59,746 nt of DNA, from contig VMGA01000001.1 of assembly GCA_007376345.1 (NCBI GenBank), positions 1 through 59,746 on the forward strand. The letters run 5' to 3'. The translations under genes and the position numbers were made by a program. Positions 1 through 22,651 of this stretch are shown in pieces; position 1 is the first letter of the stretch, and each line of letters starts with the position of its first letter. Below the pieces are notes generated by a model that was not told where the DNA came from, did not search any database, and worked only from the letters and a program-made list of their open reading frames with translations. The DNA comes from Microgenomates group bacterium Gr01-1014_16. GTDB lineage: Bacteria > Patescibacteriota > Microgenomatia > CAZETR01 > Amesbacteraceae.

Positions 1-3
1 ATG

Positions 4-76
4 TGGACGATGCTGGTCACGATCCAGCGGCCTTCGCAATGTGAATGCGACGCTCTACCAACTGAGCTAATCGTCC
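4..76 (-). tRNA. tRNA-Val(CAC)
   Basis: Reverse complement folds as a cloverleaf: GGACGAT/ATCGTCC acceptor, GCTC/GAGC D-stem, TCGCA-TTCACAT-TGCGA anticodon arm, GCTGG/CCAGC T-stem, discriminator A. CCA is not encoded and the T-loop (ATCGTGA) is atypical. Confidence 0.9.
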
Positions 77-348
77 TCGACCTGATTTATTTGGTTTGAT
101 TTTAAATAGTTCGAAAGGACTTTTTTAAGATGGGTTCTGCCCCAGCCTGTTTTGAAAAATTTCTCCCGAGAGGTGGCATCCTGTTGATTAAGATATCCCT
201 CGAGGAAGATTATTTCAAGCGGTCTTCTATACTTGGTGGCCTCGACTTTGCCTTTATTATGATACTCCAACCTTTCTCTTGGATTATTGGAGTACCCTAT
301 ATAAAGTTTGTTGTCTTTTAGACTTTTTAAGGCGTAAACGAAAAACAT
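67..348 (-). CDS. Small stand-alone GIY-YIG nuclease
   Basis: FVYAL...LYIGYS..P.ERL..HN.G...T...RP...E...RE.FFK.G.GR pattern, 93 aa. The stop codon lies inside the 5' end of the tRNA. Confidence 0.9.
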   Translation of the reverse strand: MFFVYALKSLKDNKLYIGYSNNPRERLEYHNKGKVEATKYRRPLEIIFLEGYLNQQDATSREKFFKTGWGRTHLKKVLSNYLKSNQINQVEDD

Positions 349-350
349 AG

Positions 351-431
351 GTAAATGCGACGCTCTTCACCCGACTAAATTTTTTGCGAGGCAAAAAACT
401 TTGACGGGTAAACCAACTGAGCTAATCGTCC
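351..431 (-). other. 5' half of tRNA-Val(TAC) with a 45-nt hairpin inserted in the D-loop
   Basis: 351-366 and 412-431 match 41-56 and 57-76 except for the wobble base. The insert spans 367-411. Homology stops right after the anticodon. Confidence 0.85.
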
Positions 432-439
432 GTGGACAA

Positions 440-461
440 ATTTTAACATAGCTGTGATAAT
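440..461. promoter_or_regulatory. Back-to-back extended -10 elements for the tRNA/GIY-YIG unit (-) and lepB (+)
   Basis: Minus strand TG-T-TAAAAT (448-440); plus strand TG-T-GATAAT (453-461), 6 nt before ATG 468. Confidence 0.55.
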
Positions 462-467
462 GGAATG

Positions 468-1034
468 ATGTTCAGATTAAGGAGGGGAAATATTGCGATT
501 TTGGACGCACTGGAGCCGGTGGTGCTGGCATTTGCCATCTTTATGATGGTGTATCTGTTTTTGTTCCAGCCGCATAAGGTGGACGGGAATTCGATGTACC
601 CTAATTTTCACGACCGGGAGTATATTTTGACGGATAAAATCAGCTACCAAAAGGGCGAGCCGCAGAGGGGCGATGTGGTCGTATTCCACGCGCCGCCGCC
701 GTACACCAGTGATTTTATTAAACGGATAGTGGGCATGCCGGGCGAAACGGTAATGGTCCAATCCGGATTCATATACGTCAACGGGCAGAAATTGATGGAG
801 GTGTATTTGCCGGAAAATTACGTGACTTCAGAAAAGTCGTTTTTGAGAGAGGGGGTGCCTTATAAGATTCCGGAGGGATATTACATGGTGTTTGGGGATA
901 ACCGGGGGTACAGTTCGGACTCGCGTGAATGGGGTCCTATTTCGAAAAAAGCGATCGTGGGAAAGGCCATGATCCGGTATTGGCCGATGGACCGGGTTGG
1001 ATTGATACAACACCAGGAATACGGAATTAAGTGA
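468..1034 (+). CDS. lepB: Signal peptidase I
   Basis: N-terminal TM helix, GNSMYP (catalytic Ser), FIKRIVG (catalytic Lys), GDNR..S.DSR.WG. Start could also be 465. Confidence 0.95.
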   Translation: MFRLRRGNIAILDALEPVVLAFAIFMMVYLFLFQPHKVDGNSMYPNFHDREYILTDKISYQKGEPQRGDVVVFHAPPPYTSDFIKRIVGMPGETVMVQSGFIYVNGQKLMEVYLPENYVTSEKSFLREGVPYKIPEGYYMVFGDNRGYSSDSREWGPISKKAIVGKAMIRYWPMDRVGLIQHQEYGIK

Positions 1035-21592: not shown

Positions 21593-22651
21593 TTATAAGG
21601 CATTAAGGCCTTTGGATTCAATAATTTTAACAATTTCATTAACCCTGCCGCTTTGGTCAAGCGGGCAAACCAGCAATCCGCCGGGGGTATCGATCACCGC
21701 TAAATTATTGACTCCAACCAGAGCTACAACTTTATTTTTATCAGCAACTTCGACAAAATTATCTTTTCCGTCCAGGTCAATGATGTTTCCTGGAGGGTGA
21801 TAGAGATCATTAGCTATGGAGAATTCACTTAGGGATTTCCAAGTACCAATGTCTACCCATTTAAATGGCAGCTCGACTACCAACGATTCGCCCCGGGCGT
21901 GAACCTGCTCGGTTACTTCTTCAATCGGACCGGGAGCCATTTTGGCATATTCTGTTTTTACATCCGAGCCGTTGATAATATTCGTTAAGGGTTCGTACCA
22001 GTCTGGCCGATAGGTTTTGAGCATAGTTATGAAGTTTTTGGGGGTCATACAAGAGTGGTTAGCGTGGACCAGCAATAACCCATCCTTTATATGGGCTTCG
22101 ATTTCCTCAACCGATTTTCTCCAGAGATATTTAGCGACCTTGAAAACCCCAATCTCCCCGTCCTGGCTAATTTTTTCTCCTTTAACCAAGTAGTCTACGC
22201 CCTGAACAAGACTGTCGGGCTTAAACCCCCCGGTAATGTACTTTGTCTCCATCCTGGCAAGCTGGTCGCAAACATCCAGCATCCTAAGAAATTCTTCCAC
22301 TGGTTCGCGAAGATCATCCACTTGGACGACCATGAAGGGTTCATCCGCAAAGCCTAATTTCAGAAGCGTTGCTGCGATTAAGCCCGTAGCCGGACCCTGG
22401 TTCCTCATTTCCGGCTCCAGAATGTAGTTTTCAAAGGGAAGTTCCGGTATTTGTTCTTTGACGATTTTCGCCTGTTCTTCGTTAACGGAGATGTAAATAC
22501 CTTGAGGCTCGAATTTGGTTCGTAAGGTCTCGTAATTTATTTGAAGCAAAGACCTACCTTTAACCAGAGGTAGAAATTGTTTGGGCATGTGTCGGCGGCT
22601 GATCGGCCAGAGCTTGGTGCCGAACCCGCCGCAAATTATTACAGGAATCAT
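21593..22651 (-). CDS. manC: Mannose-1-phosphate guanylyltransferase-like protein
   Basis: PVIICGGFGTKLWPISR..MPKQF, EPEMRNQGPA, WVDIGTW, DT..GLLV. Confidence 0.8.
   Translation of the reverse strand: MIPVIICGGFGTKLWPISRRHMPKQFLPLVKGRSLLQINYETLRTKFEPQGIYISVNEEQAKIVKEQIPELPFENYILEPEMRNQGPATGLIAATLLKLGFADEPFMVVQVDDLREPVEEFLRMLDVCDQLARMETKYITGGFKPDSLVQGVDYLVKGEKISQDGEIGVFKVAKYLWRKSVEEIEAHIKDGLLLVHANHSCMTPKNFITMLKTYRPDWYEPLTNIINGSDVKTEYAKMAPGPIEEVTEQVHARGESLVVELPFKWVDIGTWKSLSEFSIANDLYHPPGNIIDLDGKDNFVEVADKNKVVALVGVNNLAVIDTPGGLLVCPLDQSGRVNEIVKIIESKGLNAL

What the first reader, a model, noticed from the sequence alone, without database searches (positions are those of the whole stretch)
4..448. GIY-YIG nuclease nested between a half tRNA-Val(TAC) and a whole tRNA-Val(CAC)
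Seen, on the minus strand: a -10 box, then a 5' half tRNA identical to the downstream tRNA except for anticodon TAC versus CAC. The half breaks off right after the anticodon (position 36), and the GIY-YIG ATG starts 2 nt later. The GIY-YIG stop codon is supplied by the first bases of the complete tRNA-Val(CAC). The 6 nt before the half tRNA (GTCCAC) also match the tRNA 3' end. No integrase or group I core is visible. Inference, three models: (a) a compact tRNA-targeting mobile element that inserts at the anticodon and rebuilds the tRNA, here switching its anticodon; (b) one locus producing two isoacceptors, since removing 350-41 would join the TAC half to the shared 3' half; (c) the half tRNA is a structured leader, guide or substrate mimic for the nuclease.
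Basis: partly seen in the sequence, partly recalled or inferred. Interest (0 to 1): 0.85.

Follow-up and report, generated by a model that had tools for sequence, protein, structure and literature searches.

The report
Tiny nuclease gene nested in tRNA
A very small nuclease gene and its DNA hairpin have lodged inside a valine tRNA gene of a tiny groundwater bacterium, leaving a dead front half of the tRNA and rebuilding a whole copy behind it, and the same design recurs at many tRNA genes in related bacteria.

Summary
On the minus strand lie a promoter, tRNA-Val nt 1-36 with anticodon TAC, CT, and the ATG of a 93-aa GIY-YIG ORF. Its TAG stop falls in nt 8-10 of a complete tRNA-Val(CAC).

The layout recurs. 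A paralogue on contig C50 shows it at tRNA-Gln(CTG). Of 80 homologue loci, 36 have a same-strand tRNA just downstream, and 24 of those repeat the tRNA's 5' end upstream.

Ten of eleven sister genera have an empty site, with lepB, the same promoter and tRNA-Val(CAC). One has a filled site and another holds a decayed remnant.

GTCCAC is a conserved promoter-proximal motif, not a tRNA 3' end. tRNA-Val(TAC) normally sits in a tRNA cluster that this assembly lacks.

The protein resembles Slx1/UPF0213 structure-specific nucleases, not I-TevI. H is a palindromic element in its own right and also lies in frame inside EF-G.

Best reading: a selfish nuclease-plus-hairpin element nested in tRNA genes, closest to phage SegB. 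The two-isoacceptor splicing model is not supported. The mechanism is inferred, not shown.

The parts
440..446 (-). -10-like box TTAAAAT of the native tRNA-Val promoter. With 432..439 it forms the motif TAAAATTTGTCCAC, which is conserved in sister genera.
   Evidence: the same motif precedes tRNA-Val at the empty sites L087-L096. The consensus scan did not list it, since no -35 match was found.
412..431 (-). Left-over tRNA-Val fragment, nt 1-20 (acceptor 5' strand and the 5' part of the D-arm). It sits at the ancestral tRNA position, directly after the promoter.
   Evidence: a 20 of 20 exact match to the whole tRNA. One search gives its position relative to lepB and the promoter.
367..411 (-). 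45-nt AT-rich palindromic hairpin (H) inserted cleanly in the D-loop of the fragment. The boundary is ambiguous by 1 nt.
   Evidence: -11.2 kcal/mol, z -4.55; the hairpin differs at 4 of 45 positions from the one at the same D-loop position beside the 75%-identical ORF at tRNA-Thr(CGT) in L147; single copy in this genome.
351..366 (-). Left-over tRNA-Val fragment, nt 21-36, with anticodon TAC at 353..351. It matches the whole tRNA at 15 of 16 positions.
67..348 (-). GIY-YIG nuclease ORF of 93 aa, Slx1/UPF0213-like and consisting of the catalytic domain only. The ATG lies 2 nt after the fragment and the TAG stop (69..67) lies inside the whole tRNA.
   Evidence: invariant Y5, Y16, G18, R26, H30 and E62 in 63 sequences; pLDDT 93.9; top Foldseek hits are HIGLE, Slx1 and UPF0213.
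3..76 (-). Complete tRNA-Val(CAC), rebuilt downstream of the ORF. Its T-loop reads ATCGTGA, which is unusual.
   Evidence: 63.4 bits.
465..1034 (+). lepB (signal peptidase I), the divergent neighbour used as the anchor for orthologous sites. It is not part of the element.
   Evidence: 38 of 41 genomes have a match. The name rests on my reading of the sequence; no family search was run on it.

Best explanation
This is a small selfish element nested inside the resident tRNA-Val(CAC) gene next to lepB. It has two parts. One is an ORF for a minimal, catalytic-domain-only GIY-YIG nuclease of the Slx1/UPF0213 branch. The other is a cognate palindromic hairpin (H). The insertion left the native 5' part of the tRNA (nt 1-36) attached to the native promoter, now dead because it is truncated and split by H in its D-loop. 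A complete tRNA stands directly behind the ORF, so the host keeps the tRNA. The ORF and tRNA share one orientation and lie 0-20 nt apart, so the ORF is probably transcribed from the tRNA promoter and its mRNA end set by tRNA processing (inferred). Spread most likely works as for phage SegB (inferred). The nuclease cuts tRNA-gene DNA at conserved stem-loop regions (D-arm or T-arm), perhaps recognising DNA shape rather than sequence. Recombinational repair against a filled copy, or unequal alignment between tRNA copies, then copies the ORF and duplicates part of the tRNA. H marks or occupies the cut loop. Shown here: the anatomy, its recurrence, presence/absence/decay at one locus, the fold class, and the independent spread of H. 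Not shown: nuclease activity, the cut sites, the recombination route, and expression. The TAC in the fragment is most simply a neutral C-to-T change in a dead copy. A real TAC-to-CAC replacement is not excluded.
For: Anatomy. A second copy in the same genome sits at tRNA-Gln(CTG) on C50: nt 1-12, a 36-nt H, nt 13-22, ACAA, the ATG of a 45%-identical ORF, stop, 6 nt, then the whole tRNA.

Recurrence: of the 80 best of 461 confirmed homologue loci, 36 have a same-strand tRNA starting -60..+250 nt from the end of the match. A rough expectation from 34 tRNAs in 1.03 Mb (my arithmetic) is 0.5%. Of those 36, 24 carry an exact 9-mer or longer of that tRNA upstream of the ATG, mostly starting at tRNA nt 1. 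Gapped alignment shows nt 1..k, a strongly folding 36-72-nt insert, then ..m in about 21 of 36, with k at nt 6-22 and m at nt 14-32. Mirror forms also exist, with whole tRNA, ORF, hairpin and a 3' tRNA fragment (L029, L043, L076).

Mobility signature at this very locus: 10 of 11 sister genera have lepB, promoter and tRNA-Val(CAC) with no ORF. G024 is filled and uses the same reading frame into the tRNA and the same TAG, while G011 of the same genus is empty. G042 holds a decayed remnant with half of H and ORF aa 46-84 at 77% identity, while G001 of its genus is empty.

Copy number is 1-9 profile matches in 27 of 27 family genomes. A 75%-identical ORF with H differing at 4 of 45 positions sits at tRNA-Thr(CGT), with a Thr-derived acceptor strand.

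Protein: catalytic residues are invariant. The model is confident. Foldseek's top hits are At-HIGLE, Slx1-Slx4 and UPF0213, while I-TevI ranks 16 at E 0.58. The sequence matches 1ywl at E 1.6e-4. A homodimer model scores ipSAE 0.69 against a best control of 0.20. Runs agree in at least 96% of contacts and partner pLDDT is at least 85. The mark was reached by 20 of 30 proteins solved as pairs and 1 of 23 solved as single chains, counts that hold only roughly with my own alignment. This supports pairing but does not show it.

H as an element: the pattern occurs in 12 of 27 family genomes, and the reversed control in 0 of 27. It lies in frame in EF-G and in six other long open frames, in T-loops of 3' fragments, and nested inside other H copies.

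Analogy: SegB recognises a conserved T-psi-C stem-loop motif and spreads with tRNA genes (PMC2330249, abstract). It also drives tandem tRNA-segB repeats through homologous recombination (PMC13096335, passages).
Against: No experiment or read evidence shows cutting or movement. No contig in the 3 runs joins the promoter directly to the whole tRNA, although contigs drop rare variants. The whole tRNA keeps intact D- and T-arms, so how the host copy escapes cutting is unexplained.

The order of parts is awkward for any single-step model. At L147, H and the ORF travel together, yet target-derived tRNA sequence lies both before H and, for 8 nt, between H and the ORF. L014 has a fragment whose acceptor strand differs from its whole tRNA.

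Of the 80 homologue loci, 44 have no tRNA in the downstream window, and 9 of these have one just upstream. Two of 30 family loci have an opposite-strand tRNA nearby.

Foldseek E-values are 2e-3 or weaker. The family is huge, with 23,972 clusters at E <= 0.001, so many members may be ordinary host genes. No RNA run was listed.
Confidence: 0.72

Rival explanations
1. One locus makes two isoacceptors. The TAC half is joined by splicing to the 3' half shared with the CAC tRNA, removing 350..41, as in archaeal split or tri-split tRNAs.
For: The TAC half is 35 of 36 identical to the whole tRNA and stands behind a conserved promoter. No tRNA-Val(TAC) gene is present in the assembly, although GTA makes up 17.8% of Val codons in 382 long ORFs.
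Against: A 45-nt hairpin splits the D-arm of the half. There is no group I core in 1-1200, and the only genomic group I matches are on C27. No tRNA-splicing endonuclease was found (PF01974: 0 matches here, 4 archaeal controls positive; genome 94.8% complete). Elsewhere the fragments end at nt 14-32, before the anticodon. tRNA-Gly, tRNA-Phe, four tRNA-Leu and tRNA-Pro(TGG) are also missing from the assembly. In relatives these sit with tRNA-Val(TAC) in one cluster, so the gap is an assembly gap.
Confidence: 0.03
2. The element changed the tRNA's identity. The native gene here was tRNA-Val(TAC), and the incoming copy rebuilt it as CAC, or the reverse.
For: The fragment lies at the native position and reads TAC while the rebuilt gene reads CAC. 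The anticodon at this locus does vary among sister genera: CAC in most, TAC in G008 and GAC in G011 and G024. G008 has the two Val genes swapped between the lepB site and the tRNA cluster.
Against: The case rests on one transition in 36 nt. Ten of 11 sister genera carry CAC at this site, so CAC is the simpler ancestral state. A C-to-T change in an unselected copy is the commonest kind of mutation (general knowledge). At G024 the position-34 change removes an in-frame TGA from the ORF's new start region (my reading), so such changes can have local causes.
Confidence: 0.15
3. The ORF is an ordinary, vertically inherited host gene, for example a DNA-repair or RNA-processing nuclease co-transcribed with tRNAs. 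The fragments would then be by-products of common tandem duplication at tRNA genes, not signs of mobility.
For: The Slx1/UPF0213 branch is widespread as a stand-alone minimal domain in prokaryotes, and a TrmH fusion hinted at an RNA role (PMC1564403, passages). All 27 family genomes have matches. The ORF is intact with all catalytic residues.
Against: Within a single genus there are both empty and filled sites, and a decayed copy exists. Copy number varies from 1 to 9. The tRNA partners cover many isotypes. A near-identical H and ORF pair occurs at Val and at Thr genes. Many homologues lie on short contigs.
Confidence: 0.08
4. The half tRNA plus hairpin is a functional RNA leader, acting as an mRNA stabiliser, translation element, guide or substrate mimic for the nuclease, rather than a relic.
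For: The layout is conserved. The fragment end lies 1-17 nt from the ATG in most loci. The D-stem stacks on H to form one long hairpin. The fragment is nearly unmutated here.
Against: H occurs in both orientations before the ORF (7 forward and 4 reverse among asymmetric copies, my count). H also lies inside protein genes and after tRNAs. Fragment length and H position vary. At G042 the fragment is lost.
Confidence: 0.1

Closest known systems
Phage T4/T6 SegB, a free-standing GIY-YIG homing endonuclease in the tRNA gene cluster
   Same: A GIY-YIG nuclease gene is embedded among tRNA genes. It targets a conserved tRNA stem-loop motif in DNA and spreads together with adjacent tRNA genes (PMC2330249, abstract). 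It also generates tandem tRNA-plus-nuclease repeats by homologous recombination, with microhomology between the tRNA 5' end and the nuclease gene's 3' end (PMC13096335, passages). The truncated tandem units in L107, L019 and L073 look like this.
   Different: SegB is a phage protein of the I-TevI lineage with extra DNA-binding parts (recalled). The present ORF has 80-93 aa, is the catalytic domain only, and matches Slx1/UPF0213 rather than I-TevI. It lives in cellular genomes, sits inside a single tRNA gene, leaves a tRNA fragment, and is paired with a palindromic hairpin. Nothing here has been tested at the bench.
Slx1 / At-HIGLE / bacterial UPF0213 (YhbQ-type) structure-specific GIY-YIG nucleases
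   Same: They share the fold and the minimal domain. Prokaryotic members are stand-alone minimal domains (PMC1564403, passages). A predicted symmetric dimer would suit two-fold symmetric DNA such as cruciforms or junctions.
   Different: In what I read, these are not described as mobile or as tRNA-gene-linked. Slx1 needs Slx4 (PMC8287910, search-listing abstract only).
Integrase-type genomic islands and prophages that insert in tRNA genes
   Same: Insertion within a tRNA gene is accompanied by a partial duplicate, so that an intact tRNA remains (recalled general knowledge).
   Different: Those elements use a tyrosine or serine recombinase, usually duplicate the 3' part, and are kilobases long. 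Here the whole insert is about 355 nt with no recombinase, and either the 5' or the 3' part can be duplicated.
Rickettsia palindromic elements and yeast mitochondrial GC clusters (as comparators for the hairpin H)
   Same: These are short palindromic inserts that spread within a genome and are tolerated in frame inside protein genes as well as in RNA genes (recalled). Here H lies in EF-G and in six other long open frames, always with a length that is a multiple of 3.
   Different: The sequences are unrelated. Here H is found beside a nuclease gene whose type it follows, and it favours D-loops, T-loops and the loops of other H copies.
Archaeal split and tri-split tRNA genes; group I introns in bacterial tRNA anticodon loops
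   Same: A tRNA 5' half is separated from the rest, with the break next to the anticodon at this one locus.
   Different: No splicing endonuclease and no group I core were found. The half is also broken in its D-loop, and the breakpoint is not conserved among loci.

Membership tests
GIY-YIG nuclease superfamily (Pfam PF01541) | Domain match above the curated cut-off | tested here: met
   53.3 bits against a cut-off of 22.6, E 3.5e-14.
GIY-YIG nuclease superfamily (Pfam PF01541) | Conserved Tyr (GIY), Tyr-x-Gly (YIG), central Arg and C-terminal Glu | tested here: met
   Y5, Y16, G18, R26, H30 and E62 are invariant in 63 sequences. The motif definition comes from PMC1564403 passages.
Slx1 / UPF0213 branch of GIY-YIG | Closer in fold and sequence to Slx1/UPF0213 than to I-TevI/UvrC; a minimal stand-alone domain | tested here: met
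   ranks 1-13 are HIGLE, Slx1 and UPF0213 (E 2e-3 to 3e-2, prob 0.96-1.00), with I-TevI at rank 16 and E 0.58; the only PDB sequence hit is 1ywl, E 1.6e-4. All E-values are modest.
Slx1 / UPF0213 branch of GIY-YIG | Cleavage of branched or hairpin DNA | not testable with these tools
   Needs an enzyme assay.
Free-standing homing endonuclease gene (SegB-like) | Presence/absence polymorphism of the gene at one conserved site among relatives | tested here: met
   10 of 11 sister genera are empty. G024 is filled while G011 of the same genus is empty. G042 holds a remnant while G001 of its genus is empty.
Free-standing homing endonuclease gene (SegB-like) | Degenerate copies, as expected from an invasion-decay-loss cycle | tested here: met
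   L163 keeps only ORF aa 46-84 and half of H.
Free-standing homing endonuclease gene (SegB-like) | Site-specific cut of the allele that lacks the gene, followed by copying of the gene | not testable with these tools
   No assay was possible. No empty-allele contig was seen in the same samples.
I-TevI-type intron/homing endonucleases (NCBIfam TIGR01453) | Family model above cut-off; C-terminal DNA-binding modules | tested here: not met
   17.6 bits against a cut-off of 56.05. The protein has 93 aa with only the catalytic domain.
Group I intron in a tRNA gene | Group I ribozyme core between the exons | tested here: not met
   no match at E <= 1 in 1-1200; genomic matches only on C27.
Archaeal-type split tRNA | tRNA-splicing endonuclease present; both halves intact | tested here: not met
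   PF01974 gave 0 matches (genome 94.8% complete). The half is interrupted by H.
In-frame palindromic insertion elements (RPE-like), for H | A repeated short palindrome found inside coding sequence without breaking the frame | tested here: met
   a 69-nt H lies in EF-G; six further long open frames carry H of 36, 39 or 42 nt; only EF-G was checked against Pfam; the pattern occurs in 12 of 27 genomes and the reversed control in 0 of 27.

The most novel reading that the evidence does not exclude
This is a two-part selfish system not yet described. A minimal Slx1-like, shape-reading GIY-YIG nuclease and a cognate palindromic hairpin together colonise the loops of tRNA-gene DNA (D-loop, T-loop and other hairpins). 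They duplicate part of the tRNA so that the host keeps a working copy, and they use the tRNA promoter and tRNA processing to make the nuclease mRNA. The hairpin also spreads alone, even in frame into essential protein genes such as EF-G. The system is widespread in Patescibacteria and present in some other phyla.
Probability: 0.35. Interest if true: 0.85.

Novelty: new variant of a known kind. Interest (0 to 1): 0.7.

Why it matters
If this is right, the stand-alone bacterial Slx1/UPF0213 nucleases, a very large family with no assigned role (23,972 clusters at E <= 0.001), would gain a concrete biology in at least one large branch: selfish elements that live inside tRNA genes.

It would explain three things. 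Small GIY-YIG genes sit beside tRNAs in these tiny genomes. tRNA clusters assemble badly there. tRNA fragments and GC-rich palindromes litter those regions and can confuse tRNA annotation.

It would also give a cellular counterpart to phage SegB. And it would provide a tractable case of a nuclease that may choose its targets by DNA shape, paired with a hairpin that can enter essential genes without breaking them.

Tried and rejected
Misassembly is rejected. Contigs of 3 runs cover the region with no differences, although all three come from one study and X1 may be the source sample.

A tRNA 3' end remnant before the half (GTCCAC) is rejected, because it is a conserved promoter-proximal motif.

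A constant 36/37 breakpoint is rejected.

Absence of tRNA-Val(TAC) cannot be used as evidence. The tRNA-Gly, tRNA-Phe, tRNA-Leu and tRNA-Pro(TGG) genes that share its cluster in relatives are also missing.

Single-step models fail on the data. A circle integrating by one crossover in the 5' part, and homing with a break in the D-loop, each predict a chimeric acceptor stem after a jump between isotypes. That is not seen at L147. A simple staggered-cut target duplication does not place H inside the left copy. I therefore leave the route open.

The idea that other tRNA genes of this genome are hidden by H insertions was not borne out. Canonical H occurs only twice, and a T-arm scan found no orphan tRNA bodies apart from two T-arm-plus-acceptor ends on C9 and C36 (one perhaps tmRNA; not checked).

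The metagenome scan for the window-type H arm gave 5 loci: one is the same as L147, two are solo H copies, and two are chance matches.

PHROGs gave no match.

No RNA holder was listed, so nothing can be said about expression. No joint skipping 41-350 was seen in the contigs, but contigs drop rare variants.

ARAGORN's intron-bearing tRNA-Met on C35 was not backed by Rfam.

Literature: seven full-text searches found no paper describing small GIY-YIG genes nested in bacterial tRNA genes with tRNA fragments and hairpins.
Full report
**1. What is in the sequence**

All coordinates here are on the minus strand.

- A -10-like TTAAAAT lies at 446..440, followed by TTGTCCAC.
- tRNA-Val nt 1-20 lie at 431..412.
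- A 45-nt hairpin lies at 411..367.
- tRNA-Val nt 21-36 lie at 366..351 and end in the anticodon TAC.
- CT follows, and then an ORF runs from ATG 348 to TAG 69..67.
- The TAG is nt 8-10 of a complete tRNA-Val(CAC) at 76..3 (ARAGORN; Rfam 63.4 bits).
- The ORF is a GIY-YIG domain (PF01541, E 3.5e-14).

The two tRNA pieces match the whole tRNA at 35 of 36 positions, and the one difference is T for C at position 34. As DNA the hairpin folds at -11.2 kcal/mol (z -4.55), and in the fold of the whole fragment the D-stem stacks on it.

The window is the start of contig C58. Contig C7 overlaps it by exactly 99 nt and carries what lies 3' of the tRNA. Logan contigs from three runs of one groundwater study cover 31-1500, 12-218 plus 194-584, and 350-606 without a single difference. 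The arrangement is therefore not an assembly artefact.

**2. The site in relatives**

I used the divergent neighbour lepB as an anchor. Ten of eleven sister genera of the same family have lepB, a conserved promoter motif TAAAATTTGTC[C/G]A[C/G] and then tRNA-Val(CAC) directly, with no ORF.

Three conclusions follow. tRNA-Val(CAC) is the resident gene at this site. The fragment in this genome stands exactly where the resident tRNA begins. The GTCCAC in front of it is part of the promoter region (L090 has the same six letters) and is not a tRNA 3' end.

One genus, represented by G024, has a filled site:

- the promoter, then tRNA nt 1-8;
- a different double hairpin, then nt 21-36, again reading ..TAC;
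- a 45%-identical ORF that reads into the whole tRNA in the same frame and stops at the same TAG.

G011, in the same genus, is empty, with conserved flanks on both sides.

G042 has a decayed remnant at the same site. It keeps the promoter, the 3' half of the AT-rich hairpin, ORF residues 46-84 at 77% identity, and then tRNA-Val(CAC). G001, in its genus, is empty.

Filled, empty and decayed states at one site, including within single genera, are the pattern expected of a selfish element that invades, decays and is lost.

**3. Recurrence**

The same genome holds a second copy on contig C50. Its order is tRNA-Gln nt 1-12, a 36-nt GC-rich palindrome, nt 13-22, ACAA, the ATG of a 45%-identical 80-aa ORF, a stop, 6 nt, and then the whole tRNA-Gln(CTG). 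Only these two of the 34 tRNA genes in the genome have a copy of their own 5' end within 700 nt upstream.

A scan of one genome per species gave 461 confirmed homologue loci, of which the best 80 were kept. They are mostly Patescibacteria, with some contigs labelled Bacteroidota, Ignavibacteriota, Omnitrophota, Cloacimonadota and others.

- Thirty-six of the 80 have a same-strand tRNA starting -60 to +250 nt from the end of the match, usually 1-20 nt after the stop codon. These cover some fifteen isotypes. The rough chance expectation is 0.5% (my arithmetic).
- Nine more have a same-strand tRNA ending 1-162 nt upstream.
- Twenty-four of the 36 repeat at least 9 nt of the tRNA upstream of the ATG, mostly from nt 1.
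- A gapped alignment shows the full pattern in about 21 of 36. The pattern is nt 1..k, a 36-72-nt strongly folding insert, nt k+1..m, and then the ATG 1-17 nt later. Here k lies at nt 6-22 (the D-arm) and m at nt 14-32. A few more are visible by eye.

The 36/37 break seen in the window is thus the long extreme and not a rule.

There are also other forms:

- Mirror forms have a whole tRNA, the ATG 0-6 nt later, the ORF, one or more hairpins, a 3' tRNA fragment, and then the terminator (L029, L043, L076).
- Tandem forms repeat the ORF's 3' end together with the fragment (L107, L019, L073).
- ORF-less forms have a fragment with a hairpin directly before or after a whole tRNA (L132, L135, L145).
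- One complex case has the ORF and a whole tRNA-Lys lying between two overlapping pieces of another tRNA (L137).

Within the family, 27 of 27 genomes have 1-9 profile matches (some weak ones may be other GIY-YIG proteins). Eleven of the 30 loci fetched have a same-strand tRNA within about 90 nt downstream of the ORF.

**4. The hairpin is an element of its own**

Most loci carry a conserved imperfect palindrome with the consensus CCCGCCTGCAACGC, a loop, then GCATTGCGGGCAGG. It occurs in either orientation.

The pattern is found in 12 of 27 family genomes at 1-5 copies each. The same pattern read backwards is found in none.

Solo copies lie in several kinds of place:

- in frame inside long open reading frames, with lengths of 36, 39 or 42 nt;
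- in the T-loop of 3' tRNA fragments;
- nested in the loop of another copy.

In this genome a nested 69-nt copy sits in frame inside EF-G (Pfam confirms EF-G).

The window's hairpin is an AT-rich variant. The same variant, with 4 differences in 45 nt, sits at the same D-loop position beside a 75%-identical ORF in G019. There the gene is tRNA-Thr(CGT), and the acceptor strand of the fragment is that of Thr. Hairpin type therefore follows nuclease type, while the tRNA sequences are local. Two solo copies of the AT-rich type turned up in metagenome contigs.

**5. The protein**

- Sixty-three homologues share invariant Y5, Y16, G18, R26, H30 and E62, which is the GIY-YIG catalytic set as described in PMC1564403 (passages).
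- The AlphaFold model is confident (pLDDT 93.9). The last ten or so residues, which are the ones encoded by local sequence and by the tRNA, are weakly predicted.
- Foldseek puts At-HIGLE, Slx1-Slx4 and the two UPF0213 NMR structures first, and I-TevI only at rank 16. The E-values are modest, at 2e-3 or weaker.
- The only PDB sequence match is UPF0213 protein EF2693.
- NCBIfam's group I intron endonuclease model is far below its cut-off, and PHROGs gives nothing.
- Source names are only 'GIY-YIG nuclease family protein' or 'putative endonuclease'.
- A profile search finds 23,972 clusters at E <= 0.001 and 6,485 at E <= 1e-10.
- A homodimer model scores 0.69 against a best control of 0.20. The runs agree in at least 96% of contacts, and partner pLDDT is at least 85. 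The mark was reached by 20 of 30 proteins solved as pairs and by 1 of 23 solved as single chains. The interface uses strand 46-54 and helix 77-81. This supports pairing but does not show it.

A dimer made only of catalytic domains, related to enzymes that cut branched DNA, fits a nuclease that reads DNA shape or two-fold symmetry. That step is inference.

**6. How it most likely works**

Shown: the element sits inside a tRNA gene, in the same orientation. It leaves a dead tRNA piece on one side and a whole tRNA on the other. It comes and goes at a given site. It has jumped between isotypes.

Inferred: the nuclease is transcribed with the tRNA, because the fragment keeps the native promoter and the ORF abuts the tRNA. 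tRNA processing would then set one end of its mRNA. In this copy the stop codon lies beyond the tRNA 5' processing site, which would limit expression.

Also inferred: spread resembles that of phage SegB. SegB is a GIY-YIG enzyme in the T4 tRNA cluster that recognises the conserved T-psi-C stem-loop motif and carries neighbouring tRNA genes with it (PMC2330249, abstract). [quoted passage not shown]

Hairpins lie in D-loops, T-loops and other hairpin loops, and duplications start exactly at tRNA nt 1 or end at the tRNA 3' end. This suggests cuts at the loops and junctions of cloverleaf-shaped DNA.

I could not derive the observed order of parts from any single event (see Tried and rejected). How the whole tRNA avoids being cut is also unknown.

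**7. The TAC question**

tRNA-Val(TAC) is not in the assembly. Neither are any tRNA-Gly, tRNA-Phe, four tRNA-Leu or tRNA-Pro(TGG), although their codons are in full use.

In relatives exactly these genes form one cluster together with tRNA-Val(TAC). Those clusters also hold copies of the nuclease gene, which may be why the cluster did not assemble here.

The genome has no detectable tRNA-splicing endonuclease and no group I core at this locus. The two-isoacceptor model is therefore very unlikely.

Whether the element changed the anticodon cannot be settled from one transition. Most sister genera have CAC at this site. G008 has TAC here and CAC in the cluster. G011 and G024 have GAC.

**8. Verdict**

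It belongs with free-standing GIY-YIG homing endonuclease genes linked to tRNA genes, such as SegB. It differs in four respects: the nuclease lineage and size, the cellular host, nesting inside a single tRNA gene with rebuilding of that gene, and the partnered palindromic element.

I found no description of it in seven full-text searches, within the limits of that library. I rate it a new variant of a known kind, with interest 0.7.

Noticed in passing
L081:1498-1566 (G000 contig C62:22997-23065, outside the window): A 69-nt nested GC-rich palindrome (H within H) lies in frame inside the EF-G gene, adding 23 residues after the G domain. Pfam matches end with EF-G domain IV, and no domain V match was listed for this 657-aa frame.
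   Followed up: partly
window 3-76, minus strand: The whole tRNA-Val(CAC) has an odd T-loop, ATCGTGA, where sister genera have TTCGAGC or TTCGAAT. Positions 54 and 58 look swapped. The tRNA still scores 63.4 bits.
   Followed up: no
G000 contigs C7 and C58 (window 1-99): C7 ends with the same 99 nt that begin C58, so the two contigs are neighbours. The break falls in the tRNA. In the Logan contigs, tRNA-like pieces of other organisms share words with it.
   Followed up: partly
G000 genome-wide and L099-L126: The assembly is 94.8% complete by markers but lacks a whole tRNA cluster: Gly, Phe, Leu cag/gag/taa, Pro tgg and Val tac. In relatives this cluster is peppered with GIY-YIG copies (L100 and L107 have two each).
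   Followed up: partly
G000 C44:6911-6982 and many loci: tRNA-Ile with anticodon TAT is called in this genome. It is the commonest partner of the nuclease gene among the 80 loci, in about nine of them.
   Followed up: no
G000 C35:4413-4673, C26:79659-79729 and C41:4503-4575: ARAGORN calls a tRNA-Met with a 190-nt intron (C35), and no Rfam family, tRNA or intron, matched that stretch at E <= 0.1. It also calls a 'tRNA-SeC(tca)' that Rfam tRNA does not list. Rfam lists a weak GC-rich tRNA-like match on C41 (34.8 bits) that ARAGORN does not call.
   Followed up: partly
L137:1064-1560 (G023 contig C3): A tRNA-like gene whose anticodon loop reads ACTTAGT is split. Its nt 1-51 lie before the nuclease ORF, and its nt ~10-76, with H in the T-loop, lie after a whole tRNA-Lys(CTT). 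The ORF and the tRNA-Lys look like one inserted unit.
   Followed up: no
L078 (contig labelled Methanosarcinaceae archaeon) and L002, L006, L010 etc. (labelled Gammaproteobacteria): Close homologues with H flanks occur on contigs whose organism labels lie far from Patescibacteria. This could be mislabelled bins, contamination or real transfer.
   Followed up: no
run X1, tables 5c and 7 (positions 54-70 of the window): Low-depth contigs of other organisms in the same sample carry GC-rich H-like inserts next to nt ~7-23 of Val-like tRNA sequence. The same kind of element is therefore active in neighbouring populations.
   Followed up: no
G000 C27:8248-10340: Two group I intron matches above the Rfam cut-off and one below it lie on the contig that carries tRNA-Ile(GAT) and tRNA-Ala(TGC), presumably within the rRNA operon.
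   Followed up: no
G000 C50:10779-10976: A third, weaker GIY-YIG profile match (E 4.7e-11) lies in a 164-aa open frame with no tRNA within about 11 kb of it (nearest is tRNA-Gln at 22177). It may be a different GIY-YIG protein.
   Followed up: no
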